Shown here one piece after another: positions 18,010-64,000 of a stretch of DNA of 64,000 nucleotides; within the stretch, counting starts at the first letter, position 1, and each line of letters begins with the position of its first letter. A program made the position numbers and the translations under genes. The notes under the pieces were generated by a model. The model searched no databases, was not told the origin of the DNA, and was given only the letters and a program-made list of their open reading frames with translations. Source of the stretch: Naegleria gruberi (lineage: Eukaryota); assembly GCA_000004985.1 (NCBI GenBank), contig GG738860.1. One strand, written 5' to 3'.

Positions 18010-18651
18010 ATGCAAAAACAAATCACTACAACAGACGCCCAAATCCTTAATCTTTTATTTTCTTTGAAGAATGATATGGCCAATATTAAACAAGACAATA
18101 ACAAGTTGAAAGAAGATAACAAGAAATTGAAAGAAGATAACAAGAAACTCATCACAAGAGTTGAGGTTTTAGAAAAAGATAGCAAGAAGTTGAAAGAAGA
18201 TAACACGAAGTTGAAAGAGGTTAACAAGAAACTCATCACAAGAGTAGAGGAATTAGAAAAAGATCACAAAAAGTTGAAAGAAGAAAACAAGAAACTCTTC
18301 ACAAGAGTAGAGGAATTAGAAAAAAAGGACTTGTTGAAAGTAAGAGCAAATACTTTGAAGGAGTTGTTCAGATACTTGGCAACCAAAGTTGCATCTCTGG
18401 TTTCTCCAATAGTTGATGCCACAAAACCAAACTGGTTTAATGTAATGCAATCTTATTGTAGTTCCAACATTGTTATTGAACTCCCTATCAGCCTATCTGC
18501 ACTTCAAGAGTTATGGAGCACTTACAAGATCTTAAGGTTTCCTAGAAATTACATTTGTCAAAAGCAGCTAGATGATAATTTGGCCCTTGTTTCTGGTGAT
18601 GAAAAGAAAGCCGTTCAATGGTATTTGGATCAGACTCAAAACAATCACTAA
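18010..18651 (+). CDS. Coiled-coil protein with tandem heptad-based repeats, 213 aa.
   Basis: Repeated KKLKEDNKKLITRVEELEKD units. Real ATG. Confidence 0.5.
   Translation: MQKQITTTDAQILNLLFSLKNDMANIKQDNNKLKEDNKKLKEDNKKLITRVEVLEKDSKKLKEDNTKLKEVNKKLITRVEELEKDHKKLKEENKKLFTRVEELEKKDLLKVRANTLKELFRYLATKVASLVSPIVDATKPNWFNVMQSYCSSNIVIELPISLSALQELWSTYKILRFPRNYICQKQLDDNLALVSGDEKKAVQWYLDQTQNNH
18100..18340 (+). repeat. Imperfect coding tandem repeat (21/63-nt periodicity) inside the coiled-coil gene.
   Basis: Reiterated ttgaaagaagataacaagaaactcatcacaagagt(a/t)gagg… units. Confidence 0.5.
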
Positions 18652-25638: not shown

Positions 25639-25710
25639 TCCCGTGTAGTCCAATGGCTAGGATACCTGGCTTTCACCCAGGAGGTCCGGGTTCAATTCCC
25701 GGCATGGGAG
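25639..25710 (+). tRNA. tRNA-Glu (anticodon UUC), 72 nt.
   Basis: TCCCGTGTAGTCCAATGGCTAGGATACCTGGCTTTCACCCAGGAGGTCCGGGTTCAATTCCCGGCATGGGAG. A 7-bp acceptor stem pairs with the 3' end. The anticodon loop is CT-TTC-AC. A GTTCAATTCC T-loop is present. T-rich tracts follow downstream. Confidence 0.85.
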
Positions 25711-26534: not shown

Positions 26535-26630
26535 NNNNNNNNNNNNNNNNNNNNNNNNNNNNNNNNNNNNNNNNNNNNNNNNNNNNNNNNNNNNNNNNNN
26601 NNNNNNNNNNNNNNNNNNNNNNNNNNNNNN
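26535..26630. other. Assembly gap (96 N).
   Basis: Run of N. ORF-track entries that span it are artefacts. Confidence 0.95.
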
Positions 26631-28700: not shown

Positions 28701-31700
28701 ATGGGACGAGTCACAACTATTAAGAGTGCCAACATTGTTGGTTTTTCTCTTGCTATTGTGCTGATAATGATGGCCATGGTAGTGATGGTTAAGGGTACAT
28801 CATTAAATCCATACTCTGTCAAGATTAGCACATTTGCTGGTGGAAATGGTGAATTCAAAGATCCACAAAAACTTGCTAGATTATCAAATGGTGATATTCT
28901 GGTCACTGATGCTTTAGGTCATGCTATTAAGAAGATTAACGGAACTGGTGTGATTACTACAATTGCTGGTACTGGTGTTGCTGGTTTTGCTGGTGATAAT
29001 GGACCAGCCATCAATGCTCAAGTTAACAAACCATACGGTATTGCTGTTTCAAGCAATGATGAAATTTATTTCGCTGACTCTATGAATCATAGAATTAGAA
29101 AAATTGACATCACAGGTAATATTACAACAGTGGTTGGTACTGGCGCTAACACTTTCAGTGGTGATGGTGGTTTGGCCACTGATTGTACCATGAATACTCC
29201 AATGGATGTATCATTGAGTGCTTCAGGAGAATTATACATTGCTGATATGTATAATTATAGAATTAGAAAGGTTTTGACCAATGGCACTATTGTCACATTT
29301 GCTGGTAATGGTCAATCAGGTCATATAGGTGATGGTGGTTTGGCAACAAATGCTGCTATGGCTCTTGCTTATGGTGTTAAAGTTTTTTCAAATGGAGAGG
29401 TTTACATTTCAGATAGTTTCAATTTCAAAGTTAGAAAGGTTGATGTTAATGGTAATATTACAACTGTTGCTGGTTCTGGTGCTGGACCATTCAATGGTGA
29501 CAATGTTTTGGCCACTGCTGCCAATTTGAATCATCCAACTGATGTTCTTCGTTTGGATACAGGTGAATTGATAATTGCAGACACTGACAATTACAGAATT
29601 AGACTTGTTATGCCAAATGGTACAATTATTACAACTGCTGGTAATGGTACTGCTTCATTCTCTGATGGTGAAATTGCTGAAGAAAATGGATTATCTCTTC
29701 CAACTGGTTTGTTAATGATTCAAAACGGATTATTAATTGCTGATGCTGGTAATAAGAGAATTAGATTATTGCAAAGTAGAATTTATTCATGCTATGGAAA
29801 GTCATATCTCGATTCAAGTGTTTGTAGTGGTCAAGGTCAATGTGTTGGTAATAATATGTGTCAATGCAATGCTGGATTTGAAGGCCCAACTTGTCTTCCA
29901 TCTAGCTATTATATTACAACTGTTGCAAGAGGTTTGAAGGATCCACAAAAGATTTCCAAATTGTCAAATGGCGACCTTATTGTTTCTGATACAGGCGATC
30001 ACTCTATTAAGAAGATAAGTTACTCAACCGGTGTTGTTACCAGAATTGCCGGTACTGGAGTTGCAGGTTTTTCAGGTGATGGTGGTTTAGCAACTCTGGC
30101 TCAATTCAATAAGCCATATGGTATTGCAGTTACAATTAATGATGAAATTTACATTGCTGACTCTTTAAATCATAGAATTAGATTTATTGATGTTAATGGC
30201 AATATTTCAACTGTTGTTGGTACTTCAATTGGATTCTCTGGTGATGGTGGTTTGGCTACAGCAGCTAAATTGAATGCTCCCATGGATGTTTCATTGAGCG
30301 CTTCAGGTGATTTATATATTGCTGATAGAGATAATTATAGAATTAGAAAGGTTTTGGCCAATGGCACTATTGTCACATTTGCTGGTAATGGTCAATCAGG
30401 TCATATTGGAGATGGTGGTCAAGCAATAAGTGCTGCCTTATCTCAAGCTTATGGTGTTAGAGTTGTTAATGATGAAGTTTACATTTCAGATAGTAATAAT
30501 TTCAAAGTTAGAAAGATTGATGTTAGTGGAGTTATTACAACAATTGCTGGTACTGGTGCTGGACCATTCAATGGTGACAATGTTTTGGCCACTGCTGCCA
30601 ATTTGAATCATCCAACTGATGTTGCATTCCTCTCAAATGGTGAAATGTTGATTGCTGATACTGACAATAACAGAGTCAGAATGGTTTTAACCAATGGTAC
30701 TATTGTTTCAATTGCCGGTAATGGTACTGCCTCTTTCTCTGATGGTAGAATTGCCACCTCAAGAGGATTATCTCTTCCAACTGGTATTTTGGTTGTTTCA
30801 GATGATGAAATTTATATTGCTGATGCTAAAAATGGTAGAATTAGATTACTTTCCTCTAAATTCTTTACTTGTAATGGTATTGATCAAACTGAGACCTCAG
30901 TTTGTAGTGGACATGGTTCATGTGTTTCAAAGGATAACTGTGTTTGTAAACAAGGCTGGTCTGGTGCAAACTGTGACACAACAATTCAAGCTCCACAATG
31001 TGCCAATCAAACATTGGGTATTAATATTCCATGTTCTGGACATGGTACTTGTGCAAATGGTGTTTGTACATGTTCCCCTGATTTCTATGGATCATACTGT
31101 TCACTCTCTGTTATGATAAGTTCTAAAGGATATACTCATCCAATGATGGGTGTTTTCATGATGGCTATTATTAATTCATTGACCCTTGATGGTATTTCAA
31201 ATGTTGATTACAGCTGGTCTCAAATTTCTGGACCAACCATTTCCAATTTGGCATCCATGACCAATTTGAATACTCCAACATTAATAATTCCAGGAAAATT
31301 CAATGCCCTTTCATTCAATAATGGTCTCGTTTCTGGTAGTACATATGGTTTTGCATTGACTGCCAAGATTACCACTGGTGTCATCACAACTACTGTCACA
31401 ACTTCAACCACCGTTTTTGTTCAACAAAATCCTACATTGACTTTCACTTTACATGATGACAGCACCAATCAAGCTGTTACTTCAGGTGTTGCTGGTACAA
31501 CTGTTTTCAGAATTAATATTACAAGAAACTCAAATCCTTACTCTGATTCTAGTTTCAAATATGGATTTGGTTTTTCTGATTCTAGCAGTATTACAATTCT
31601 AACTGATATGAGTGAAGGACCAGCAACATTTAAATTGCCATTCATTTCAGGTCAATCAAGTGTTGATATCTACGTTAGATGTGAAGGAGATCACTCAGAC

Positions 31701-37367: not shown

Positions 37368-38705
37368 ATGTATTGTGAAATCATGTCATTTGTCGATTCA
37401 CATACAATTATTTTGACATGTTCATTGATTTCCAAAGAGTGGTACGAATTAATCACGGAGAGTATGAAATTATCGGTCAATTTTAGAAAATTAAAATTCA
37501 ATAATCAAACATTAGATTTGATAATCAAGAGTAAATTTAAGAATTGTGTTACAGATTTAAAATTAACACACACTGCTGACAATACGAAAATTACAGAATT
37601 TACAAAATGGGCAGCAAATATTGCCCAACTTGAACAGTTGAAAAGTCTGGAAATTTCATCCGATCACAAGGTTGGTTATGATGGTGCAAAAGTTATTGGT
37701 CAATTGAAGCAGTTAACCAAGCTCGATATTAGTTTTAATACGATTGGAGCTGAAGGTGCTAAATTTATTGGAGAAATGCAACAATTGACCTATCTAAATA
37801 TTTATGGGAATTCTCTTACAAGTGAAGGAATAAGATTCATTAGTCAATTGACCAATTTAACATATCTAAACGTGCGTTTTAATGAAGATTTTAGATTTGG
37901 AGGACATGATAAAGGTCTTGAAGGAGCTCAATATTTAAGAAATTTACAAAAACTAACAAGTCTTGACATTGGTTACAATCAAATTGGAAACGATGGAGCT
38001 AAATTTATTGGTGAAATACAGTCATTGACAGAGTTAACAATACGAAACAATAACTTGAAAGCTGAAGGTGTTCGCTGGCTAAGCAAATTGAAAAATCTGA
38101 GATTGCTCAGTATTAATAATAACCATATTAAGGATGAAGGAGTAGTGCACATTTGTAAACTGAAACAGTTAACTCATCTTGACTTGTGGAATACTGAAAT
38201 AACAGCTGAAGGTATTGAATTGGTTTCTAAACAATTACCGAAAGTTACACATCTCCATATCTCCATTAATGTAATTAGAGATGGTACCAAGTTCTTAGGT
38301 GAAATGAAACAGTTGACAACACTTGAAGCAGATGAAATTGAATTAGATGCTGAAGGGCTTAAATATTTAGTTGGTTTGAAAAAATTGAATTTTCTTTCCG
38401 TTAATAATAATTTATTTGGTGCTGAAGGTTGCAAAGTAGTTAGCGAAATGAAACAATTGGAAGAGTTATGTATGAATGACAATAATATTGGAGACAATGG
38501 TGTACAGTATTTATGTGAATTGAAATCATTGACCTCTTTGTGTTTGTGGAATAATAATATTGGAATTGAGGGTGTTAAATTGTTGTGTTCTGGAAATTTG
38601 AATAATTTAACAACACTTGATATCAGAGGTAATCAAATTACAAAATCTGATTCTCATTTATTTGAAAATATGAAACAGTTGACCGAACTTTTGATTGAAT
38701 GGTAA
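37368..38705 (+). CDS. F-box / leucine-rich-repeat (RNI-like LRR) protein, 445 aa.
   Basis: N-terminal F-box-like EIMSFVDSHTIILTCSLISKEWYELI. About 14 tandem 25-28 aa LRRs (L..L.I..N.IG.EGAK.I…). Confidence 0.7.
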   Translation: MYCEIMSFVDSHTIILTCSLISKEWYELITESMKLSVNFRKLKFNNQTLDLIIKSKFKNCVTDLKLTHTADNTKITEFTKWAANIAQLEQLKSLEISSDHKVGYDGAKVIGQLKQLTKLDISFNTIGAEGAKFIGEMQQLTYLNIYGNSLTSEGIRFISQLTNLTYLNVRFNEDFRFGGHDKGLEGAQYLRNLQKLTSLDIGYNQIGNDGAKFIGEIQSLTELTIRNNNLKAEGVRWLSKLKNLRLLSINNNHIKDEGVVHICKLKQLTHLDLWNTEITAEGIELVSKQLPKVTHLHISINVIRDGTKFLGEMKQLTTLEADEIELDAEGLKYLVGLKKLNFLSVNNNLFGAEGCKVVSEMKQLEELCMNDNNIGDNGVQYLCELKSLTSLCLWNNNIGIEGVKLLCSGNLNNLTTLDIRGNQITKSDSHLFENMKQLTELLIEW

Positions 38706-38796: not shown

Positions 38797-40443
38797 TCAA
38801 TCATAGGAACCAAAGATAAACAGTAGGTTTGTTTCTGCATACTTATTTCCTTGAAGTTTGGATTTTTGATAGTATTCAATAGCTTTCTCTTTGGATTTTT
38901 CAGTGCCAATACCTTTTTCGAATAGAGTTCCCAAATAGTACTGAGCTTCTGCATGATTTTGGTGGGCTGCTTTACGTAACCATTCAAATGCTTTTGGGAA
39001 ATCTGGAAATTTCGTTCCATTCAAGTAGATCAAACCCAAATTGAATTGAGCATCTGCATCACATTGAGAAGCTGATTTCTCATACCATTGAACTGCTTTC
39101 CCGAATGATTGCTCTGTACCTTGTCCATACTCATACATTACAGCAAGATTATATTGAGCTTCTGAGTGACCTTGTTGAGCTGCCTTCAGATACCATTCAA
39201 AAGCCTTCTTAAATGACTGTTTAGTTCCTCTCCCACTTTCGTACAGTGATGCCAAATTATTTTGTGCATGGACATTCCCTTGGCTGGCTGATTTTTCATA
39301 CCATTTAAAGGCCTTCTCAAAAGACTTGGCAACTACCTTTCCATTCTCGTACAACAGAGCTAGATTATATTGAGCTACTGCATTACCTTGATTGGCTGAT
39401 TCACGGTACCATTTCACTGCCTTTTCCAAAGATAAAGAACCACCTTGTCCATTCTCGTACATGTTTGCTAAATTATTTTGAGCAGTGGCATTTCCAAGAA
39501 GAGCGGCTGCTTTGAATAAATTTCTTGCCTTCCCAAAGGATTTAGAAACTCCCAAACCATCTCTGTACATTAGGCCAAGATTACATAGGGTTATAGGATG
39601 TTCAGGTTGAGTTGCCTTCTCCATATAGTCCATGGTCTTTTCAAAAGAACTGAATTTCGTCTTATTATCCCTTATTAAAACATGTAAATTATTCATTGAA
39701 TTGTTTTGGCCTTGGTTTGATGAAATTTTTACTTGATTTTGCAAAGAGAGAATTTCTTCTTGTAATTGCCTATTCTTCTCCTCAAATTCTTCCATCAATT
39801 CTTTTCGTTTTCTTTCATAATCAGCAATCAGTTCCTCCTCTTTTTGTTTCAGATTTTTAATTCGATTCCTTTCCACTGTTTTCATTACATTTTCAATTTC
39901 CTCCTTCATTCTCGTTTTTAATCCTTCAACATTTTCTTCCAATTCTTCATCCTTCCCGCATTCATCCATCCAATTCGTTGTAATTTCGAGCATTGCCAAA
40001 ATCTCATACAAGTGTCTATAAGCATTCGAGCTTGGCAAAGTTTTTCCTCCTCTGAAATCTTCACCACACAATTCGCAATTTTGAATCTTTTTACAACAGC
40101 CAGAACAGAGCACTCCCTGATGAGGAGGAAATGATTTATATCTGATTGGATTCTTTCTTTCGGACGAACATGAATCATTTTGATCAATACTATTTTCACT
40201 ATTTTGATTTTGAATAATTGATGAAGTTATTAATAATGATTCATAATCATCATCATCATAGTCATGATTCGGAATGAGAATTAGAGGATCTGAATCGAGT
40301 AAATCATCTTGTTCTGTGGAGGGAAAAGTCTGTTTGCTTAATTCCGATTCTTGCTTTTCGATCATTTTTTTTGTTTGAAAACGAATTCCGAGAATGTGGT
40401 TGTTGTAAAACGAATTATTCGGAACTAAACTTTGATTTATCAT
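38797..40443 (-). CDS. Sel1-repeat (TPR-like) protein with an N-terminal Cys-rich zinc-finger-like segment and a coiled coil. The start is uncertain: 40443 is the first ATG, and the ORF-track start at 40476 is a TTG.
   Basis: Seven or more Sel1 repeats (A..NLA.MYE.G.GV..S..KA..WY.KAA.QG). CSGCCKKIQNCELCGEDF Cys cluster. EE/KK coiled-coil segment. Confidence 0.7.
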   Translation of the reverse strand: MINQSLVPNNSFYNNHILGIRFQTKKMIEKQESELSKQTFPSTEQDDLLDSDPLILIPNHDYDDDDYESLLITSSIIQNQNSENSIDQNDSCSSERKNPIRYKSFPPHQGVLCSGCCKKIQNCELCGEDFRGGKTLPSSNAYRHLYEILAMLEITTNWMDECGKDEELEENVEGLKTRMKEEIENVMKTVERNRIKNLKQKEEELIADYERKRKELMEEFEEKNRQLQEEILSLQNQVKISSNQGQNNSMNNLHVLIRDNKTKFSSFEKTMDYMEKATQPEHPITLCNLGLMYRDGLGVSKSFGKARNLFKAAALLGNATAQNNLANMYENGQGGSLSLEKAVKWYRESANQGNAVAQYNLALLYENGKVVAKSFEKAFKWYEKSASQGNVHAQNNLASLYESGRGTKQSFKKAFEWYLKAAQQGHSEAQYNLAVMYEYGQGTEQSFGKAVQWYEKSASQCDADAQFNLGLIYLNGTKFPDFPKAFEWLRKAAHQNHAEAQYYLGTLFEKGIGTEKSKEKAIEYYQKSKLQGNKYAETNLLFIFGSYD

Positions 40444-40576: not shown

Positions 40577-40648
40577 CTCCCATGCCGGGAATTGAACCCG
40601 GACCTCCTGGGTGAAAGCCAGGTATCCTAGCCATTGGACTACACGGGA
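40577..40648 (-). tRNA. tRNA-Glu (anticodon UUC), second copy, identical to the one at 25639-25710.
   Basis: The plus strand here is the exact reverse complement of the 72-nt tRNA at 25639-25710. It is flanked by a T-rich tract on its 3' side. Confidence 0.85.
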
Positions 40649-40947: not shown

Positions 40948-41586
40948 ATGGTCTTCAAAATTTATGGTGCTGCTCAATCTACTTGTGTTCAACGTGTTTT
41001 GACCACAATCAAGGAGAAAGGTTTAGAATATGAACTTGTTCCTGTTGATTTAATGAAGGGAGAACACAAGTCACCATCCCACTTGGAAAAGCATCCATTT
41101 GGAGTCATTCCAGGCTTGGAAGATGACGGTTTCTTGATTTATGAATCTCGTGCTATCTGTCGTTATTTAGAAGCCAAACATAAGGGCCAAGGAACTGAAC
41201 TCATTCCAACCGAACTCAAAGCTTTGGGTCTATTCGAACAAGGCGCTTCCATTGAAACTGCTTACTTTGATTCAAATGCCTCTGGTTTAGTTTTTGAAAA
41301 GTTATTTAAGGGAATGATGGGATACGGAGCCGCAGACGAAGCTCGTGTCAAACAATTGAGTGAAAAGTTAGCTCTCAATTTGGATTCCTATGAAAGAGTG
41401 TTGGCTAAACAAGAATTCATTGGTGGAAATCAATTCACCTTAGCCGATTTGTATCACTTACCATATGGAAATTTGTTGTTCGCCATTGGATTGGGTAACT
41501 TATTGTTGGATCGTCCACATGTTAAAGCTTGGTGGGAAAAGATTTCATCAAGACCTTCATGGAAAGCTGTTTCAGGACAACATTAA
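40948..41586 (+). CDS. Glutathione S-transferase, 212 aa.
   Basis: GST N-terminal thioredoxin-like and C-terminal helical domains (ESRAICRYLEAKH…, FIGGNQFTLADL). Single exon with a real ATG. Confidence 0.8.
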   Translation: MVFKIYGAAQSTCVQRVLTTIKEKGLEYELVPVDLMKGEHKSPSHLEKHPFGVIPGLEDDGFLIYESRAICRYLEAKHKGQGTELIPTELKALGLFEQGASIETAYFDSNASGLVFEKLFKGMMGYGAADEARVKQLSEKLALNLDSYERVLAKQEFIGGNQFTLADLYHLPYGNLLFAIGLGNLLLDRPHVKAWWEKISSRPSWKAVSGQH

Positions 41587-41661: not shown

Positions 41662-42540
41662 TTAATACTTGTTAAATGTTAAACTTCTTTTGATTCTTAT
41701 ACGAAAAGATAAAACATTTTGTGATTTAACAACAAGTGTTGTTTCAGATTCTTCAATTACTATTTCTTTTGGAATCTGGTTGTGATTGATGGTAAATTTT
41801 GATATTGCTTTAGATTTGTTGGAACGTCCCTTTCTACAAACTTTCTTCAAATCTTTCACAAGTGCCATCATTCGGGGCGTTCCTGTGAATTTATCCATTA
41901 AATCGAAAGCTGTTTGTCCCTCCGAGTTTCTTACAATATCAAGTTTCAATCCTCGAGCAATTAAGACTTGGAGGATTGAATGGTCTGTATATCTTCTAGG
42001 ATTTTTCTTAATTAAACTCAAATAATATCTCGTAACATAATGTGAAATATCGTCTCCATCAATACATCCATAGTATTTGATATTTCTTAATTGTTGTAAA
42101 GGGCTTTTCTCAATAGAAAAATGATAAAGACCGTTCAAATAATGGGTACACAATGATACAAGTTCAGGTTCACCTGAAGAGTAATCAAATCCAATTGTAT
42201 TGGCTTCTGTTACCAATAAGTGAGTATTAATGTTATACCCCATTAATAAATATAAATATCTACACATTCCAAAATTATCAGTATATGAAAAAAAGTTCAA
42301 TTTAGGCATATTCTCAATATGTCCTAAATGGTCCAAAGCTATAAGATAACTATTGTAAAAAGTTTGGATGGGCATTGTTTGATTATTATCTTTCAATTCT
42401 AAACCCAAATGTTGTATTGTTGTACTGAAACAATTGGTTGAATAGTGAACCAAATATCTTCCATTCTCATCTCTAAAGTTAATATCTCTGTATTCTTCAT
42501 ATTTTTTGATTTGTTGATCATTAATGAAAGCAAAATAGAT
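41662..42540 (-). CDS. 3' part of a host gene truncated by the 42551-42600 gap. The C-terminal region has an ankyrin-like repeat.
   Basis: The open frame runs from the gap to a stop. DHSILQVLIARGLKLDIVRNSEGQTAFDLM resembles an ANK repeat. The ORF-track entry 41662-42879 that spans the N run is chimeric. Confidence 0.3.
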   Translation of the reverse strand: MYFAFINDQQIKKYEEYRDINFRDENGRYLVHYSTNCFSTTIQHLGLELKDNNQTMPIQTFYNSYLIALDHLGHIENMPKLNFFSYTDNFGMCRYLYLLMGYNINTHLLVTEANTIGFDYSSGEPELVSLCTHYLNGLYHFSIEKSPLQQLRNIKYYGCIDGDDISHYVTRYYLSLIKKNPRRYTDHSILQVLIARGLKLDIVRNSEGQTAFDLMDKFTGTPRMMALVKDLKKVCRKGRSNKSKAISKFTINHNQIPKEIVIEESETTLVVKSQNVLSFRIRIKRSLTFNKY

Positions 42541-42550
42541 TTTCATCACC

Positions 42551-42600
42551 NNNNNNNNNNNNNNNNNNNNNNNNNNNNNNNNNNNNNNNNNNNNNNNNNN
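42551..42600. other. Assembly gap (50 N) inside or abutting the retroelement.
   Basis: Run of N. Confidence 0.95.
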
Positions 42601-43151
42601 TGAGGATCCCCATCGTTGACCTTTCTTAGATCCAAAATGAATCTGAATTGGTCTGACCCTTTCTTTGGAACTACGTTTATAGGGTTGATAACGATGTTTG
42701 GGGAGTGAACAATTACTCCTTCTTTCAACATGGAACCAATCTCTTTTTGGATCCATTGTTTCTCTGTAGTAGAGAATTTCCTCTGATGGTAATTTTTCCA
42801 ACGATTCGAATCGGAATCTATTGGAATTCCGTTTTGAATCCAATCGTGAATCGTGTTGGAAACACCGAATTCTTGCCATCGGCTGTGAAAACGAGAGAGA
42901 CGACCACCAAGAGGAATGTTGGCATCATTTATTGTTGTTGTTTGAGTTGGAGGAATTTGAAGCGGTTCCACTTGCTTGGTGAGCATTGTTGAATCTTCTG
43001 AAGCCTTGATTGTTGGATTGGTAACTATTACCTTGTCCTTGGTTGAAGTTGTTGTTGTTGTAGTTGTTGTAACCAGCTTGTCTATTATCGTATCTAGTGG
43101 GGAACTTACGAAAATTAGGGGTTCTGCTTGCCCATTTGCTGACTTTTTCAA
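42601..43151 (-). CDS. Retroelement pol ORF, N-terminal part (reverse transcriptase fingers region), truncated at the gap.
   Basis: …WIQKEIGSMLKEGVIVHSPNIVINPINVVPKKGSDQFRFILDLRKVNDG. Confidence 0.6.
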
Positions 43152-43998
43152 TGGTTTCTGCTGCTTTTACTTTTTCAGCAGATTTAATCGCCTTCTCTTG
43201 TTGTTTGGAGGTGATTTGGTCAAGTGAACCTCCTGATTTGTAGCTGTTAGAGAAGTTTTCAGCTGCTTCAAAGCCATTTTTAATGCCCATTCGAATACAG
43301 ACTAGATTTAACTCAGAAATATTCTGAATAAATTCAAATCCTTGAAGAATAAGCGGTAAATCAAGGGTATCACTCTCTCTCAAACGCTTGCAGATTTGAG
43401 AGATGATAAAAGAGTTTGTTAAAAGTAAAGAATAACCTTTACTTTTAATATCTTTTATACCAGATGAATCTGGAATGGGAGTGTCTACTTCTTTTCTGAA
43501 CAACAATTCAAGAGCAGCCATTCTATTCTTGAATTCCAAGTTGTCAGCGTATGGAGCATTGGCTGTTTCGAATAGAAGAGAAACAGCTTCTTCCAACGGC
43601 AAATCTTCTTTCAATGACTCACCAAACATTCTTTGGTAAGAGTCGATGACGTGGTTTTTAAACCAATCATCTGGTTCATCAGCAACTCTTGCTCTTTTAC
43701 CAGAAACCTCTTCAGATGGGTTGGACTCAAACAATTCCATCGAAGAAGCGAGAGCAGAAGCACCTTGTGAACCAACCTTGGCGTTGTTTGAGTCTTTGCC
43801 AGGTGATATCTTTTGTTGATTGTTCTTCTTGTTCTTCTTTGTGTCTTGAACAGGAGGAGGTGAAGGCATAGCAGAACTATCAGATGAATTTGAGGTGGAA
43901 GGAGTTAGAACAATGACTCGTTGCTCGCTACCTGCAGAAGGTGAGCTAAGGTCTTTCGTTTTCTTGTTGTTCTTTGGTGTAGTTGGTGTTGGGGCCAT
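42925..43998 (-). CDS. Retroelement gag-like ORF, 357 aa, with an N/Q-rich C-terminus.
   Basis: It lies immediately upstream of and overlaps the RT ORF. It is hydrophilic and has no CCHC knuckle. The gag assignment rests on position. Confidence 0.45.
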   Translation of the reverse strand: MAPTPTTPKNNKKTKDLSSPSAGSEQRVIVLTPSTSNSSDSSAMPSPPPVQDTKKNKKNNQQKISPGKDSNNAKVGSQGASALASSMELFESNPSEEVSGKRARVADEPDDWFKNHVIDSYQRMFGESLKEDLPLEEAVSLLFETANAPYADNLEFKNRMAALELLFRKEVDTPIPDSSGIKDIKSKGYSLLLTNSFIISQICKRLRESDTLDLPLILQGFEFIQNISELNLVCIRMGIKNGFEAAENFSNSYKSGGSLDQITSKQQEKAIKSAEKVKAAETIEKVSKWASRTPNFRKFPTRYDNRQAGYNNYNNNNFNQGQGNSYQSNNQGFRRFNNAHQASGTASNSSNSNNNNK

Positions 43999-44033
43999 TG
44001 TGATAATTTTTTGAGCATGGAAAAATACTCAAC

Positions 44034-45332
44034 TTATATTTTATTAAGTTTACAATGAAAACAAGTCCATTCTTCACTTCGCTCAGAATTAGACACAGCA
44101 GAGAATTTGAAATTACCAAGTTTGGTAAAATCGATATTATAATCCCTAGATAGAGACTGAACATCCTCTATATCCATTCTCTCTAGAAATAGTTTGGTAA
44201 TATTTTTACCAACCTTAATATCTACAAATGGATATGATAAAATTAGTTTCAAGCATTCTATGCTGTATATTGGAATTCTGAATACTCTAAAAGAAGGATA
44301 TTTTTTGTAGAAATAGTGTAATGTGTCCATAATTTGTTTAAGATTATCATATTTGAGCTCTTTGTAAATTTCAGATCGGATATTCCATAAAAAGGAAAAT
44401 AAGTTAGTATTAAGTGTAAAATTATTGATGATATAGTTTGCCTCTTCAAAACGATATGATACTAGACTATTGTAGAGGAACATTTCAATATTTGTTGGAT
44501 AATTATTTGGAAACACGCTTTTCAATTTTTCCATTGGAACTACTGGGTTTCTTTCATAGTCCATAGATGAGAAGTACATATTCTGTTTATGTGCTAAAGC
44601 TGAAGGGTAATAACTTGATTTAGGTGTGTAAATAATTGTTAAAGAGTTGCTTCTTTCATAGTAAAATAATGGTGGCTTGAAATCGAATAGTGCATATTTA
44701 AGGTTAGGTGTTAGATCTATAATTTTGTGTAAATCAAATCCTGTTGGAAAAATGTGGTCATATGAAGAATAGTTTCTTCCAAAATTTGTTGAAAATGAAA
44801 TAAATTCCACTTTATACAACACATGACCACCACAAAGCTTTTTCATCTTATCAAATAGTTCACTAAATTTGTCAATCCACTCACTATTAGTTATGTAATA
44901 TGAAAAAAAGGATCTTTTAAACCAAGGTTTACGTTCCAATATTTCAAAATATGTATTGTCCAAATAATATCTACACAGTTTCCTTTCTGAAAATGTTGAC
45001 AAATTCAAAATTGTTGGTCAAAACGCTTGCACAGATTTTAACGGTGTTTGACAAGTTAAAAAGAAAGGCACTCTACTAGGATGATCAAAATCAACAAATT
45101 CCTCCACATTATTCATACCACTCCGTTCATATTCGTCCAATGTTGATGGCATTTCTATCATCGTATCGTAACAACTGATCACAACAAATATCACGAATAT
45201 AATCGAGGTAGTAGAAGATAATAAAGTGAATTTCCGTGGGAAGATCTGCGAGGGTGTAAACTTGTTCACATTTTTATCAGGCAAATATAAATCCAAACAA
45301 ATCAAAAAGACTACAGCACCACAGGTTCCCAA
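44034..45332 (-). CDS. Hypothetical type-II-membrane-like protein. Two consecutive in-frame ORFs (45332-45018 and 45008-44034) are separated by a single TGA, so this is either a non-canonical intron or a pseudogene.
   Basis: N-terminal TM segment (SIIFVIFVVISCY). The downstream ORF begins on TTG in the same frame right after the stop. No canonical GTAAGT donor was found. Confidence 0.3.
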
Positions 45333-60982: not shown

Positions 60983-61032
60983 NNNNNNNNNNNNNNNNNN
61001 NNNNNNNNNNNNNNNNNNNNNNNNNNNNNNNN
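60983..61032. other. Assembly gap (50 N).
   Basis: Run of N. Confidence 0.95.
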
Positions 61033-61347
61033 GGTAATTTTTCCAACGATTCGAATCGGAATCTATTGGAATTCCGTTTTGAATCCAATCGTGAATCGTG
61101 TTGGAAACACCGAATTCTTGCCATCGGCTGTGAAAACGAGAGAGACGACCACCAAGAGGAATGTTGGCATCATTTATTGTTGTTGTTTGAGTTGGAGGAA
61201 TTTGAAGCGGTTCCACTTGCTTGGTGAGCATTGTTGAATCTTCTGAAGCCTTGATTGTTGGATTGGTAACTATTACCTTGTCCTTGGTTGAAGTTGTTGT
61301 TGTTGTAGTTGTTGTAACCAGCTTGTCTATTATCGTGTCTAGTGGGG
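61033..61347 (-). mobile_element. Second copy (315-bp fragment) of the retroelement gag/pol overlap region. It differs at one position from 42788-43102.
   Basis: Direct sequence comparison: ggtaatttttccaacgattcgaatcggaatc…ctagtgggg is shared, with a single G/A difference near the end. It lies between two N runs. Confidence 0.75.
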
Positions 61348-64000
61348 NNNNNNNNNNNNNNNNNNNNNNNNNNNNNNNNNNNNNNNNNNNNNNNNNNNNN
61401 NNNNNNNNNNNNNNNNNNNNNNNNNNNNNNNNNNNNNNNNNNNNNNNNNNNNNNNNNNNNNNNNNNNNNNNNNNNNNNNNNNNNNNNNNNNNNNNNNNNN
61501 NNNNNNNNNNNNNNNNNNNNNNNNNNNNNNNNNNNNNNNNNNNNNNNNNNNNNNNNNNNNNNNNNNNNNNNNNNNNNNNNNNNNNNNNNNNNNNNNNNNN
61601 NNNNNNNNNNNNNNNNNNNNNNNNNNNNNNNNNNNNNNNNNNNNNNNNNNNNNNNNNNNNNNNNNNNNNNNNNNNNNNNNNNNNNNNNNNNNNNNNNNNN
61701 NNNNNNNNNNNNNNNNNNNNNNNNNNNNNNNNNNNNNNNNNNNNNNNNNNNNNNNNNNNNNNNNNNNNNNNNNNNNNNNNNNNNNNNNNNNNNNNNNNNN
61801 NNNNNNNNNNNNNNNNNNNNNNNNNNNNNNNNNNNNNNNNNNNNNNNNNNNNNNNNNNNNNNNNNNNNNNNNNNNNNNNNNNNNNNNNNNNNNNNNNNNN
61901 NNNNNNNNNNNNNNNNNNNNNNNNNNNNNNNNNNNNNNNNNNNNNNNNNNNNNNNNNNNNNNNNNNNNNNNNNNNNNNNNNNNNNNNNNNNNNNNNNNNN
62001 NNNNNNNNNNNNNNNNNNNNNNNNNNNNNNNNNNNNNNNNNNNNNNNNNNNNNNNNNNNNNNNNNNNNNNNNNNNNNNNNNNNNNNNNNNNNNNNNNNNN
62101 NNNNNNNNNNNNNNNNNNNNNNNNNNNNNNNNNNNNNNNNNNNNNNNNNNNNNNNNNNNNNNNNNNNNNNNNNNNNNNNNNNNNNNNNNNNNNNNNNNNN
62201 NNNNNNNNNNNNNNNNNNNNNNNNNNNNNNNNNNNNNNNNNNNNNNNNNNNNNNNNNNNNNNNNNNNNNNNNNNNNNNNNNNNNNNNNNNNNNNNNNNNN
62301 NNNNNNNNNNNNNNNNNNNNNNNNNNNNNNNNNNNNNNNNNNNNNNNNNNNNNNNNNNNNNNNNNNNNNNNNNNNNNNNNNNNNNNNNNNNNNNNNNNNN
62401 NNNNNNNNNNNNNNNNNNNNNNNNNNNNNNNNNNNNNNNNNNNNNNNNNNNNNNNNNNNNNNNNNNNNNNNNNNNNNNNNNNNNNNNNNNNNNNNNNNNN
62501 NNNNNNNNNNNNNNNNNNNNNNNNNNNNNNNNNNNNNNNNNNNNNNNNNNNNNNNNNNNNNNNNNNNNNNNNNNNNNNNNNNNNNNNNNNNNNNNNNNNN
62601 NNNNNNNNNNNNNNNNNNNNNNNNNNNNNNNNNNNNNNNNNNNNNNNNNNNNNNNNNNNNNNNNNNNNNNNNNNNNNNNNNNNNNNNNNNNNNNNNNNNN
62701 NNNNNNNNNNNNNNNNNNNNNNNNNNNNNNNNNNNNNNNNNNNNNNNNNNNNNNNNNNNNNNNNNNNNNNNNNNNNNNNNNNNNNNNNNNNNNNNNNNNN
62801 NNNNNNNNNNNNNNNNNNNNNNNNNNNNNNNNNNNNNNNNNNNNNNNNNNNNNNNNNNNNNNNNNNNNNNNNNNNNNNNNNNNNNNNNNNNNNNNNNNNN
62901 NNNNNNNNNNNNNNNNNNNNNNNNNNNNNNNNNNNNNNNNNNNNNNNNNNNNNNNNNNNNNNNNNNNNNNNNNNNNNNNNNNNNNNNNNNNNNNNNNNNN
63001 NNNNNNNNNNNNNNNNNNNNNNNNNNNNNNNNNNNNNNNNNNNNNNNNNNNNNNNNNNNNNNNNNNNNNNNNNNNNNNNNNNNNNNNNNNNNNNNNNNNN
63101 NNNNNNNNNNNNNNNNNNNNNNNNNNNNNNNNNNNNNNNNNNNNNNNNNNNNNNNNNNNNNNNNNNNNNNNNNNNNNNNNNNNNNNNNNNNNNNNNNNNN
63201 NNNNNNNNNNNNNNNNNNNNNNNNNNNNNNNNNNNNNNNNNNNNNNNNNNNNNNNNNNNNNNNNNNNNNNNNNNNNNNNNNNNNNNNNNNNNNNNNNNNN
63301 NNNNNNNNNNNNNNNNNNNNNNNNNNNNNNNNNNNNNNNNNNNNNNNNNNNNNNNNNNNNNNNNNNNNNNNNNNNNNNNNNNNNNNNNNNNNNNNNNNNN
63401 NNNNNNNNNNNNNNNNNNNNNNNNNNNNNNNNNNNNNNNNNNNNNNNNNNNNNNNNNNNNNNNNNNNNNNNNNNNNNNNNNNNNNNNNNNNNNNNNNNNN
63501 NNNNNNNNNNNNNNNNNNNNNNNNNNNNNNNNNNNNNNNNNNNNNNNNNNNNNNNNNNNNNNNNNNNNNNNNNNNNNNNNNNNNNNNNNNNNNNNNNNNN
63601 NNNNNNNNNNNNNNNNNNNNNNNNNNNNNNNNNNNNNNNNNNNNNNNNNNNNNNNNNNNNNNNNNNNNNNNNNNNNNNNNNNNNNNNNNNNNNNNNNNNN
63701 NNNNNNNNNNNNNNNNNNNNNNNNNNNNNNNNNNNNNNNNNNNNNNNNNNNNNNNNNNNNNNNNNNNNNNNNNNNNNNNNNNNNNNNNNNNNNNNNNNNN
63801 NNNNNNNNNNNNNNNNNNNNNNNNNNNNNNNNNNNNNNNNNNNNNNNNNNNNNNNNNNNNNNNNNNNNNNNNNNNNNNNNNNNNNNNNNNNNNNNNNNNN
63901 NNNNNNNNNNNNNNNNNNNNNNNNNNNNNNNNNNNNNNNNNNNNNNNNNNNNNNNNNNNNNNNNNNNNNNNNNNNNNNNNNNNNNNNNNNNNNNNNNNNN
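61348..64000. other. Terminal assembly gap (2653 N).
   Basis: Run of N to the end of the window. Confidence 0.95.

What the first reader, a model, noticed from the sequence alone, without database searches (positions are those of the whole stretch)
42601..43998. Gap-flanked protease-less retroelement (DIRS/Ngaro-like) with gag/pol overlap in the +1 frame, plus a second copy at the scaffold end
A gag-like ORF is followed directly by an RT N-terminus, with no protease motif between them. The RT carries VVPKKGSDQFRFILDLRKVN and the HSRWQEFGVSNTIHDWIQNGIPI segment. The pol ORF opens about 225 nt before the gag stop and sits in the +1 frame relative to gag. The element is cut by a 50-N gap on one side, and a 315-bp 99.7%-identical fragment at 61033-61347 is sandwiched between two gaps. 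This is the signature of a multi-copy repeat that broke the assembly. An ankyrin-like partial gene (41662-42540) lies on one side of it and a gene with an in-frame internal stop (44034-45332) on the other, so it may have inserted into or between host genes. Direct gag-to-RT organisation without a protease is typical of tyrosine-recombinase retroelements. In social amoebae these and the tRNA-targeted elements shape genome architecture.
Basis: partly seen in the sequence, partly recalled or inferred. Interest (0 to 1): 0.5.

Follow-up and report, generated by a model that had tools for sequence, protein, structure and literature searches.

The report
DIRS-type retrotransposon splitting a Naegleria gene
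This is the first 1.5 kb of a tyrosine-recombinase (DIRS-type) retrotransposon of the amoeboflagellate Naegleria gruberi, inserted inside a host gene and cut off by an assembly gap; it is an ordinary kind of mobile element, with an unusually tidy overlapping-gene layout.

Summary
The window is Naegleria gruberi, not a social amoeba, and the element lies on the minus strand.

Window 44097→42601 holds:
- a 99-nt non-coding leader;
- a 357-aa gag-like ORF;
- the N-terminus of pol in the +1 frame, up to RT motif 1, where a 50-N gap cuts it.

The fragment at 61033-61347 is a second copy with 1 mismatch in 315 nt. Three N. gruberi gene models on other scaffolds carry the same gag.

Eight related elements from metagenomes and read-set assemblies share 36-75% identity with it. 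They show the family layout: gag, then pol (RT, RNase H, Dam-like methyltransferase), then a tyrosine recombinase. None has a protease or a DDE integrase. It is therefore a DIRS-order element of the DIRS1/PAT kind, not Ngaro and not Ty3.

New points:
- The two "neighbour genes" are halves of one Naegleria-specific host gene that the insertion split.
- In 8 of 8 family members gag ends in UGA at the same pol codon.
- The gag frame stays stop-free after that UGA. It has 0 stops in the window's 108 codons against about 10 expected. In relatives it runs across all of pol into the recombinase.

The terminal repeat type is unresolved. Interest is modest.

The parts
44065..44097 (-). 5' terminus of the element: a roughly 33-nt 'left extension' (TGTGTCTAATTCTGAGCGAAGTGAAGAATGGAC).
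   Evidence: Similarity to the leaders of L002, L004, L005 and L006 starts here and is absent upstream. L002:117-212 matches window 44092-43995 at 81% identity, higher than the 66-71% seen in coding DNA. In L005 the same point (nt 61) abuts unrelated flank. Homology of the host ORF to its family ends 1-2 codons before this point.
44030..44064 (-). Candidate left inverted terminal repeat arm (TTGTTTTCATTGTAAACTTAATAAAATATAAG...).
   Evidence: This is assigned by position only. It aligns with the leader segment that, in L004 and L005, is the reverse complement of the last 37-43 nt of the unit (scores 44 and 38; 0 of 500 shuffles reach them). The right arm of the window copy is not in the assembly, so pairing cannot be tested here.
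44007..44020 (-). Conserved box CCATGCTCAAAAAA just upstream of the gag ATG. Its function is unknown.
   Evidence: Present in the window, L002, L004 and L005 (ATGCTCAAA is shared by all four). L006 has the variant CATCGCTAAAAAA.
42925..43998 (-). ORF1, gag-like, 357 aa. It has a disordered N-terminus, a helical core and an Asn/Gln-rich basic tail, and it ends in TGA.
   Evidence: ORF coordinates. It is 99% identical to N. gruberi XP_002668143.1 and 55-58% identical to ORF1 of L002 and L003, which sits directly upstream of pol. There is no Pfam hit and no PDB sequence hit, and the AlphaFold model is poor. It is therefore called 'gag' on position and composition only.
42922..42930 (-). Candidate recoding site AAA-TGA-TGC: the gag stop codon. 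The +1 frame reads AAT-GAT (Asn-Asp of pol), and the 0 frame continues open.
   Evidence: In 8 of 8 family members the gag stop is TGA followed by C or T, and it sits on the same pol codon pair ([N/D/A]-D, 5-12 codons before GGRL).
42601..43166 (-). ORF3 (pol), N-terminal 188 codons, +1 frame relative to gag. First ATG at 42984-42986. It contains the pre-RT domain (GGRL..FH..W...) and RT motif 1 (VVPKKGSDQFRFILDLRKVN), then is cut by the gap.
   Evidence: Translation. Frame arithmetic. It is 75% identical to P0001 and 46-60% identical to the pol N-termini of L001-L005. Those full-length pols all match RVT_1 and Dam.
42601..42924 (-). Start of ORF2: the continuation of the gag frame after the TGA. 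It overlaps pol in the -1 frame. In relatives this frame runs on into the tyrosine-recombinase domain.
   Evidence: It has 0 stops in 108 codons, against 10.1 expected from synonymous shuffles of pol (minimum 3 in 5000). The other off-frame has 6 stops. In L002, L003, L004 and L007 the same frame has 0 stops over 619-623 codons (24-38 expected) and contains the YR ORF.
42551..42600 (.). 50-N assembly gap of nominal size. It hides the remainder of the element and a piece of the host gene.
   Evidence: N run. No RT core, RNase H, methyltransferase or recombinase sequence occurs anywhere else in the window. About 165 residues of the host-gene family (P0133 residues 274-440) have no counterpart between the two halves.
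61033..61347 (-). Fragment of a second copy, covering the gag tail and the pol N-terminus (element nt about 996-1310). It lies between a 50-N gap and the end of the scaffold sequence.
   Evidence: It equals 42788-43102 with 1 mismatch. tblastn with L002 pol also hits it.
44098..45332 (-). 5' half of the interrupted host gene (Naegleria-specific family, F-box-containing in some paralogues). It has an in-frame TGA at 45018-45020.
   Evidence: It is 40% identical to N. gruberi XP_002678053.1 (P0130). It aligns to P0133 residues 28-273 with E=4e-13. The TGA replaces a conserved Arg/Lys (P0130 'SVKTFRPTIVNL' versus window 'SVQAF*PTILNL'). The last 19-20 codons of the listed ORF (to 44034) are element leader read in frame.
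41662..42550 (-). 3' half of the same host gene.
   Evidence: It aligns to P0133 residues 441-657 with E=4e-22, on the same strand. It has no Pfam hit.

Best explanation
Window 44097→42601 (minus strand) is the 5' 1.5 kb of a DIRS-order, tyrosine-recombinase retrotransposon of Naegleria gruberi. It belongs to a compact family with units of about 4.0-4.2 kb and the layout leader, gag, pol (RT, RNase H, inactive-looking Dam-like methyltransferase), tyrosine recombinase.

The copy sits inside the coding region of a Naegleria-specific host gene, in the same orientation. The gene's two halves now flank the element. The rest of the element and about 0.4-0.5 kb of the host gene are hidden in the nominal 50-N gap, because near-identical copies elsewhere broke the assembly.

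**How it works (inferred from the family and from published work on DIRS-1).** A full-length transcript is translated to Gag. The pol frame (+1) and the long gag-frame continuation that ends in the recombinase are reached from the same mRNA. My best guess for the route is recoding at the conserved leaky UGA: a +1 shift gives Gag-Pol, and readthrough gives Gag-ORF2-recombinase. The ATGA stop-start overlap at the end of pol offers a second route to the recombinase. The RNA is reverse-transcribed, a closed or head-to-tail DNA form is made, and the recombinase inserts it by site-specific recombination without a target-site duplication.

**Shown versus inferred.** Shown: the anatomy, the copy number, the family layout, the split host gene and the stop-free overlapping frame. 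Inferred: the recoding mechanism and the integration steps. The confidence given is for the identity of the element and the split host gene. I put the recoding model at about 0.4-0.5.
For: **Organism:**

**Anatomy in the window:**

**Family layout in relatives at 36-75% identity:**
- L002 has gag, then pol (RVT_1 E=9e-20, Dam E=7e-5), then a YR ORF (Phage_integrase E=3e-5).
- L003-L008 have the same order.
- 6 of 6 pols hit RVT_1 and Dam, and 5 of 5 ORF3s hit Phage_integrase, best E=2.7e-11.
- The catalytic residues R...HK...HxxR...(W/H)...Y are conserved, except that the truncated L002 ORF reads S at the W/H position.
- No protease or rve domain is present. Ty3-type proteins appear only at E~1e-19 over about 20% of the query.
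- The best solved relative of pol is Ty3 RT, which fits the published kinship of DIRS and Ty3 RTs (PMC3266345).

**Long ORF overlap seen in the window itself:**

**5' end and leader:**

**Host gene split:**

**Multi-copy:**

**Conserved UGA and +1 arrangement in 8 of 8 members:**

**ATGA overlap at the pol/YR boundary in 4 of 5:**

**Earlier reports:** DIRS1-like copies in N. gruberi (PMC3266345), and 'DIRS' repeats masked in N. lovaniensis (PMC6125883).
Against: - The window copy itself contains no RT core, RNase H, methyltransferase or recombinase sequence. Its classification rests on relatives, none of which could be shown to come from N. gruberi.
- No N. gruberi gene model for pol or the recombinase of this family was found.
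- gag has no detectable similarity to any known Gag, by Pfam, PDB sequence search or fold search.
- The internal complementary region, which is essential in DIRS-1 (PMC7192593), was not found in three complete relatives.
- No conserved RNA structure follows the UGA.
- Most intact relatives examined also have a pol-frame ATG upstream of the UGA (L005 only a distant one, 87 codons before GGRL; the degenerate L001 has none), so independent initiation of pol is not excluded.
- The window copy could be a 5' fragment rather than a full element.
Confidence: 0.88

Rival explanations
1. It is a PAT-like or other split-direct-repeat element of the DIRS order, not a DIRS1-like element in the strict sense. 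Genomic copies would carry the leader again, in direct orientation, after the recombinase ORF, and would have no internal complementary region.
For: In every relative that reaches past the recombinase stop, the next sequence is the 5' leader in direct orientation.
- L005: 61-306 equals 4079-4324 at 97% identity, with unrelated flank before nt 61.
- L004: the leader homologue follows the YR stop.
- L006, L007 and L008 are circular permutations of one 4097-bp unit.

No ICR was found. PAT-like elements also carry the methyltransferase domain (PMC3266345).
Against: - The repeat in L005 runs at least 148 nt into gag and is only 97% identical although all its ORFs are intact. That fits two tandem copies or a chimeric assembly better than one element's own repeats.
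- Short inverted terminal arms plus a left extension, as described for amoebozoan and fungal DIRS1-like elements, are present (PMC3266345 Table 3).
- The long YR/pol ORF overlap is a DIRS1-like trait.
- No contig shows the 3' flank, so the defining B1-A2-B2 arrangement could not be checked.
Confidence: 0.3
2. It is a Ngaro-type tyrosine-recombinase element (gag, RT/RNase H, recombinase, no methyltransferase).
For: gag is followed directly by RT with no protease, and relatives carry a recombinase. A direct-repeat-like head-to-tail junction is seen in relatives.
Against: All 6 pols of the family match the Dam methyltransferase model at E between about 7e-6 and 1e-2. The recombinase frame overlaps all of pol. 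Ngaro elements lack the methyltransferase domain and usually lack ORF overlaps (PMC3266345).
Confidence: 0.03
3. It is the 5' part of an LTR (Ty3/gypsy-type) retrotransposon whose protease and integrase lie in the gap.
For: RT motif 1 of the window fragment gives weak hits to Ty3-type proteins as well. The best solved relative of the family's RT is Ty3.
Against: - pol starts only about 30 codons before the pre-RT domain, which leaves no room for a protease.
- All eight relatives have a tyrosine recombinase, or no integrase-type ORF at all, after pol. None has rve or RVP.
- The leader is not an LTR. It is 99 nt long, with no repeat of it in the window.
Confidence: 0.02
4. The 315-bp piece at the scaffold end is a scaffolding artefact, that is, reads of the copy at 42788-43102 placed a second time. 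The element would then be single-copy.
For: The piece is isolated between a gap and the end of the scaffold sequence. It is 99.7% identical to the first copy, and a full element could not fit in the adjacent 50-N gap.
Against: - It differs by one base, which changes a codon (Tyr to His).
- Whatever the status of this piece, three N. gruberi gene models on other scaffolds (2,227, 15,284 and 196,593 bp) encode the same gag with their own substitutions.
- An ENA contig of 4,239 bp carries a further near-identical gag with an indel.
Confidence: 0.05

Closest known systems
DIRS-1 of Dictyostelium discoideum, and DIRS1-like elements in general (Piednoel et al. 2011, PMC3266345; Malicki et al. 2020, PMC7192593)
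   Same: - Three ORFs: gag-like, RT/RNase H/methyltransferase pol, and tyrosine recombinase.
- No protease or DDE integrase.
- The recombinase ORF overlaps pol extensively, with the catalytic domain in the non-overlapping 3' end.
- Inverted terminal arms.
- The RT is closest to Ty3.
   Different: - The inverted arms are very short (about 35-43 nt, against 66-316 nt).
- No internal complementary region was found in relatives, although it is essential in DIRS-1.
- The recombinase frame is the gag frame itself, separated from gag by a single UGA.
- Contigs of relatives show head-to-tail junctions.
- The host is a heterolobosean, where earlier evidence for DIRS1-like elements was only similarity to degenerate copies.
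AcasDIRS1 (Acanthamoeba) and the fungal DIRS1-like elements with a left extension (PMC3266345, Table 3)
   Same: - Small size: 3974 bp for AcasDIRS1, against units of about 4018-4097 bp here.
- A 'left extension' lies outside the left inverted repeat (12-64 nt in those elements, about 32 nt here).
- The hosts are amoeboid or fungal.
   Different: Those elements have ICRs of 85 nt or more that are complementary to the termini. None was detected here. No sequence comparison with them was possible with these tools.
PAT-like elements (PAT, kangaroo, TOC), the sister superfamily of DIRS1-like
   Same: They have an RT/RNase H/methyltransferase pol plus a tyrosine recombinase and lack an ICR. Their terminal sequence is repeated in direct orientation near the 3' end, which would explain the recombinase-to-leader junctions seen in relatives.
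   Different: The split direct repeat (A1...B1-A2-B2) could not be demonstrated. Inverted arms are present. In this family the recombinase is always in the same orientation as pol.
Ngaro elements
   Same: They are tyrosine-recombinase retroelements with gag followed directly by RT.
   Different: Ngaro has no methyltransferase domain and usually no ORF overlaps. Both are present in this family.
Stop-codon-associated recoding sites: +1 frameshifting at a UGA in antizyme mRNA and at AAA-stop in Euplotes, and UGA-C(U) readthrough contexts. This comparison rests on my own knowledge, not on a test here.
   Same: The gag stop is always UGA, followed by C in 7 of 8 members (U in the window) and by CU in 4 of 8. 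The codon read after a +1 shift is always GAY. The 0 frame stays open after the stop.
   Different: No stimulatory RNA structure is conserved. The codon in the P site varies (AAA, CAA, GAA, AGA, GGC). There are no expression data at all.

Membership tests
DIRS order (tyrosine-recombinase retrotransposons) | A reverse transcriptase follows a gag-like ORF directly, with no aspartic protease between them. | tested here: met
   The window pol frame starts at most 60 codons, and its first ATG 26 codons, before the pre-RT GGRL motif, and reaches RT motif 1. The window fragment is too short for a Pfam RVT_1 hit. All 6 full-length pols of the family hit RVT_1 (best 3e-26) and none hits a protease model.
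DIRS order (tyrosine-recombinase retrotransposons) | It encodes a tyrosine recombinase instead of a DDE integrase. | tested here: inconclusive
   This part is not present in the window; it lies beyond the gap. In relatives, 5 of 5 ORFs after pol hit Phage_integrase (best 2.7e-11) and keep the catalytic residues R, HK, HxxR, W/H and Y, apart from S at the W/H position in the truncated L002 ORF. No rve domain occurs in the family. The frame that leads into the recombinase is open in the window.
DIRS1-like / PAT-like clade | A methyltransferase-like (Dam-like) domain lies after RNase H in pol. | tested here: met
   This was tested in relatives only. All 6 pols hit PF05869 Dam (best 7.4e-6; the one score shown, L002's 23.1 bits, is below the curated cut-off of 28.1), at the expected position after RNase H. 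Precomputed PF05869 hits are also listed for P0015, P0017, P0031 and P0059.
DIRS1-like superfamily | There is a long overlap of the recombinase ORF with the pol ORF (seen in about half of described elements). | tested here: met
   In the window there are 0 stops in the 108 codons of the pol -1 frame, against 10.1 expected (0 of 5000 shuffles). In L002, L003, L004 and L007 there are 0 stops in 619-623 codons, against 24-38 expected. The other off-frame has 58-70 stops.
DIRS1-like superfamily | The element is bounded by inverted terminal repeats. | tested here: inconclusive
   In relatives, the reverse complement of the last 37-43 nt of the unit matches the leader from nt +33 (L004 and L005: 0 of 500 shuffles; L006: p=0.03). 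The window has only the left end. The arms are shorter than any in PMC3266345 Table 3. The 3' genomic boundary was never observed.
DIRS1-like superfamily | An internal complementary region (ICR) is complementary to both termini. | tested here: not met
   No internal match to the reverse complement of the right end, the left end or the junction exceeds shuffled controls in a consistent way in L004, L005 or L006 (best p=0.01 for one 20-nt match in L005, the rest p>0.05). Caveat: the termini are inferred, and the window copy cannot be tested.
PAT-like superfamily | Split direct repeats (A1 ... B1-A2-B2) take the place of ITR and ICR. | tested here: inconclusive
   The leader recurs in direct orientation after the recombinase in L004, L005 and L006-L008. 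Tandem copies or circular DNA would give the same picture, and no contig reaches a 3' flank.
Ngaro | No methyltransferase domain and usually no ORF overlaps. | tested here: not met
   Both the methyltransferase domain and the long overlap are present in the family.
Ty3/gypsy LTR retrotransposons | Protease and DDE integrase in pol, and long terminal direct repeats. | tested here: not met
   No RVP or rve hits occur in any family member. rve-bearing proteins are only distant hits (E~1e-19, 20-24% coverage). The 99-nt leader is not repeated in the window.

The most novel reading that the evidence does not exclude
This is a distinct, ICR-less lineage of compact DIRS-type elements in heteroloboseans. 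The whole element is one gag-to-recombinase reading frame interrupted by a single leaky UGA, with pol nested in the +1 frame. One recoding site would then apportion ribosomes between three outcomes: termination (Gag), a +1 frameshift (Gag-Pol) and readthrough (Gag-ORF2-recombinase). This would give a concrete, testable reason for the long-unexplained recombinase/pol ORF overlap of DIRS1-like elements.
Probability: 0.25. Interest if true: 0.6.

Novelty: new member of a known kind. Interest (0 to 1): 0.35.

Why it matters
The only published survey found seven degenerate DIRS1-like copies in N. gruberi and called their presence in excavates uncertain (PMC3266345). This family has near-identical copies, an intact gag, an insertion that splits a host gene, and relatives whose ORFs are all intact. 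That points to an active or recently active tyrosine-recombinase retroelement in Heterolobosea, which bears on how old and how widespread the DIRS order is.

In practical terms, it shows that the 50-N gaps in this assembly hide several kilobases. It also shows that at least three annotated 'predicted proteins' of N. gruberi are transposon gag genes.

The invariant layout of gag-UGA, pol in +1, and a stop-free frame running into the recombinase gives a defined site at which to test how DIRS-type elements express pol and the recombinase.

Tried and rejected
1. **Pfam on the window ORFs.** gag, the pol N-terminus and both flanking ORFs gave nothing useful.
2. **Fetching N. gruberi DNA.** Exact-protein look-ups to fetch DNA for other copies and for gene models failed for the window gag, P0005, P0006 and the GST. 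P0001 and P0003 are also not on record. As a result, the N. gruberi copies outside the window were seen only as proteins.
4. **Metagenome scans.**
   - The scan with a pol alignment first failed for lack of conserved columns and then found no relative.
   - A DNA-pattern scan found one more family member, L009.
5. **ICR search.** Both blastn-short and local alignment with shuffles were negative.
6. **RNA structure after the UGA.** No consensus structure was found.
7. **gag fold.** The AlphaFold model had mean pLDDT 45, and Foldseek against the PDB gave nothing below E=1. A PDB sequence search with the gag profile gave only noise.
8. **tRNA targeting.** Rejected. The only tRNA genes are two tRNA-Glu genes, at 25639-25710 and 40577-40648.
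9. **A coding role for the 'EEWTCFHCKLNK' motif in the leader.** Rejected. It is conserved at the nucleotide level in L002, it is not conserved as a peptide in L004-L006, and its frame differs between elements.
10. **Paralogues of the flanking ORFs in the window.** None were found.
Full report
**1. What is in the sequence**

The window has four N runs: 26535-26630, 42551-42600, 60983-61032 and 61348-64000. The last reaches the end of the window, and I read it as padding past the end of the scaffold.

All features of the finding lie on the minus strand.
- A 357-aa ORF runs from 43998 to 42925.
- A second frame, +1 relative to it, is open from 43166. Its first ATG is at 42986, and it runs into the gap at 42601, overlapping the first ORF by 242 nt.
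- The piece at 61033-61347 equals 42788-43102 with a single mismatch.

**2. Whose genome it is**

The intact GST ORF at 40948-41583 is residue-for-residue XP_002678736.1 of Naegleria gruberi. The first ORF is 99% identical to the N. gruberi 'predicted protein' XP_002668143.1. The window is thus from a heterolobosean amoeboflagellate, not a social amoeba, and the Dictyostelium context in the finding does not apply. The only tRNA genes in the window are two tRNA-Glu(UUC) genes, at 25639-25710 and 40577-40648, and neither is adjacent to the element.

**3. What kind of element it is**

Pfam sees nothing in the window ORFs, because the fragment stops at the first RT motif. The classification therefore rests on relatives.
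- Protein searches found close relatives of both ORFs in metagenomes and read-set assemblies.
- DNA for eight of them was recovered: L001-L008 by protein look-up and L009 by a DNA pattern.
- The window gag is 54-58% identical to ORF1 of L002 and L003. The window pol N-terminus is 36-60% identical to theirs and 75% identical to P0001.

All relatives share one layout: ORF1, then a pol of 626-668 aa, then a third ORF of about 300 aa.
- All six full-length pols match RVT_1 (best 3e-26) and the Dam methyltransferase model (best 7e-6).
- All five third ORFs match Phage_integrase (best 2.7e-11) and keep the catalytic residues Arg, His-Lys, His-x-x-Arg, Trp/His and Tyr, apart from Ser at the Trp/His position in the truncated L002 ORF.
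- No protease or DDE integrase is present. Ty3-type proteins with rve domains are only remote hits.
- The closest solved RT is that of Ty3, as expected for DIRS-type RTs (PMC3266345).

By the published definitions, this is a DIRS-order element of the DIRS1/PAT kind, not Ngaro. Those definitions are: the methyltransferase domain is present in DIRS1-like and PAT-like elements and absent from Ngaro and VIPER, and protease and integrase are absent from all of them (PMC3266345; PMC3783388).

**4. A hallmark visible in the window itself**

After the gag stop codon (TGA, 42927-42925) the gag frame does not close again.
- It is open for all 108 codons up to the gap. Synonymous reshuffling of the pol codons gives 10.1 stops on average and never fewer than 3 in 5000 trials. 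The third frame has 6 stops.
- In L002, L003, L004 and L007 the same frame has no stop across the entire pol ORF (619-623 codons; 24-38 expected; 58-70 in the other off-frame). It is also the frame of the recombinase ORF.

This is the 'long ORF overlap' of the recombinase ORF over pol described for DIRS-1 and about half of DIRS1-like elements (PMC3266345). In this family it has a particularly simple form: gag and the recombinase ORF are one reading frame, interrupted by a single UGA, with pol nested in +1.

The gag stop has the same features in 8 of 8 independent members.
- It is always TGA.
- It is followed by C in 7 of 8 members, by T in the window, and by CT in 4 of 8.
- It always lies on the same pol codon pair ([N/D/A]-D, 5-12 codons before the GGRL motif), although the Asn-rich gag tails differ in length and sequence.
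- L002 looks like an exception only because a frameshift truncates its gag. The Asn-rich tail and its TGA are still readable there.

At the other end of pol, the pol TGA overlaps an in-frame ATG of the recombinase frame (ATGA) in four of five elements.

**5. The 5' end**

L002 and the window are 81% identical over the 96-98 nt before the gag ATG, more than in the coding DNA (66-71%), and unrelated further upstream. The leaders of L004, L005 and L006 align to the same stretch. In L005 this stretch begins at nt 61 after unrelated flank.

The element therefore begins at the TGT at 44095-44097, and a 99-nt leader precedes gag. By position the leader consists of three parts:
- a 33-nt outer segment;
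- a segment corresponding to the left inverted arm of the relatives;
- a conserved CCATGCTCAAAAAA box.

In L004 and L005 the last 37-43 nt of the unit are the reverse complement of the leader from nt +33 (0 of 500 shuffles reach the score). That resembles the arrangement 'left extension plus ITR' described for amoebozoan and fungal DIRS1-like elements (PMC3266345 Table 3).

Two features do not fit a canonical DIRS1-like element.
- No internal complementary region could be found in three complete units.
- Every contig that passes the recombinase stop continues, after 30-140 nt, with the leader in direct orientation.
  - In L005, 61-306 equals 4079-4324 at 97% identity.
  - In L004, the leader homologue follows the recombinase stop.
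  - L006, L007 and L008 are circular permutations of a 4097-bp unit, and L006 has a k-1 end overlap.

Tandem copies, circular DNA, or PAT-type split direct repeats would all produce this picture. I could not tell them apart because no contig reaches a 3' flank.

**6. The neighbours are one host gene**

An exhaustive search with the ORF at 44037-45008 found a small Naegleria family: N. gruberi XP_002678053.1 and XP_002683305.1, an N. lovaniensis F-box protein, and environmental relatives.

One 701-aa member, P0133, aligns with both flanks.
- Its residues 28-273 match the upstream ORF (E=4e-13).
- Its residues 441-657 match the downstream ORF at 41665-42549 (E=4e-22), on the same strand.
- The upstream alignment stops at residue 303 of the ORF, 1-2 codons before the element's 5' end. 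The last 19-20 codons of that ORF (…VSNSERSEEWTCFHCKLNKI*) are element leader read in frame.

The element therefore sits inside one host gene, in the same orientation. The in-frame TGA at 45018-45020 replaces a conserved Arg/Lys of the family, so the host gene is also a nonsense-mutated pseudogene, unless that base is a sequencing error.

About 165 residues of the family have no counterpart between the halves. Together with the missing 2.6-2.8 kb of the element, this means the 50-N gap is nominal.

**7. Copy number**

Besides the two pieces in the window, three N. gruberi gene models carry the same gag: XP_002668143.1, XP_002669638.1 and XP_002668677.1. They lie on scaffolds of 2,227, 196,593 and 15,284 bp.
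- Each has its own substitutions.
- Two of them share a breakpoint after codon 305.
- A 4,239-bp ENA contig carries a further near-identical gag with an indel in the Asn-rich tract.

The family is therefore multi-copy and young. Its GC content (39%) stands out from the host gene halves (30%).

**8. How it most likely works**

Shown here:
- the anatomy of the element and the family layout;
- the split host gene;
- the conserved UGA with pol in the +1 frame, and the stop-free overlapping frame.

Inferred from DIRS-1 (PMC7192593; PMC3266345): transcription from the leader, reverse transcription, formation of a closed DNA form, and recombinase-mediated insertion without a target-site duplication.

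My proposal for expression is that the UGA is a recoding site. Termination there gives Gag. A +1 shift, which reads GAY directly after the last gag codon, gives Gag-Pol. Readthrough of the weak UGA-C context gives a Gag-ORF2-recombinase product. The ATGA overlap at the end of pol allows reinitiation as a second route to the recombinase.

Two points argue against a frameshift signal:
- No conserved RNA structure follows the UGA.
- Most intact relatives have a pol-frame ATG somewhere upstream of it.

I give the recoding model about 0.4-0.5.

**9. What is known, and the verdict**

DIRS1-like copies in N. gruberi were reported in 2011 as seven degenerate copies in six families. That study treated their presence in excavates as uncertain (PMC3266345). 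'DIRS' repeats are also masked in N. lovaniensis (PMC6125883).

The finding is therefore a new, apparently recently active member of a known kind. Its sub-classification (DIRS1-like or PAT-like) remains open because one defining feature, the ICR, was tested in relatives and not met.

The Ngaro alternative, the organism, and the description of the neighbours are not supported.

Noticed in passing
window 25639-25710 (+) and 40577-40648 (-): Two identical tRNA-Glu(UUC) genes lie in inverted orientation 14.8 kb apart. They account for the 101-nt inverted repeat reported by the repeat finder. Identity extends a few bases into the flanks.
   Followed up: yes
window 45018-45020 (-): The in-frame TGA in the host gene half replaces a conserved Arg/Lys of the family ('SVKTFRPTIVNL' in XP_002678053.1). 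The interrupted gene therefore also carries a nonsense change, or this base is a sequencing error.
   Followed up: partly
proteins P0005, P0006, P0137 (N. gruberi XP_002668143.1, XP_002669638.1, XP_002668677.1): Three annotated 'predicted proteins' are gag genes of this element. Two share an identical 25-aa tail after gag codon 305 that is not encoded in the window, and one diverges after about codon 257. They are either rearranged or deleted copies or artefacts of gene modelling.
   Followed up: partly
protein P0136 (ENA contig of 4,239 bp, not fetched): This near-identical gag has an indel in the Asn-rich tract (GYNYNNNNNHNNNFNQ versus GYNNYNNNNFNQ). The contig is about one unit length and is probably the full N. 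gruberi-type element. The variable tract lies where the 315-bp fragment ends and where two gene models diverge.
   Followed up: no
L006, L007, L008 (Logan ERR2815209, ERR2815274, ERR2815266): The same 4097-bp element was assembled as three different circular permutations in three read sets. L006 has a 30-nt end overlap. The head-to-tail junction therefore physically exists in the sampled DNA, as tandem copies, circles or direct terminal repeats.
   Followed up: partly
L002:3034-3037, L003:2813-2816, L004:3061-3064, L006:2906-2909: The pol stop codon and an in-frame ATG of the recombinase frame overlap as ATGA in four of five relatives. This is a stop-start arrangement typical of coupled translation.
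   Followed up: partly
window 41662-42879 (-): The ORF lister reports a 405-aa ORF running through the 50-N gap. It is an artefact that joins the element's post-UGA gag frame to the host gene half across the Ns.
   Followed up: yes
window 18089-18319; 28929-30845; 37714-38683; 39016-39432: Several internally repetitive coding stretches occur here: 84-nt repeats, repeat blocks with a period of about 1080 nt containing a recurring ...IYFADS.NHRIR motif, 76-nt repeats at spacings of about 220-430 nt, and four 108-nt repeats. They look like repeat-domain host genes unrelated to the element.
   Followed up: no
window 26535-26630: A third assembly gap (96 N) lies about 0.8 kb from one of the tRNA-Glu genes. 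Its flanks were not examined for repeats.
   Followed up: no
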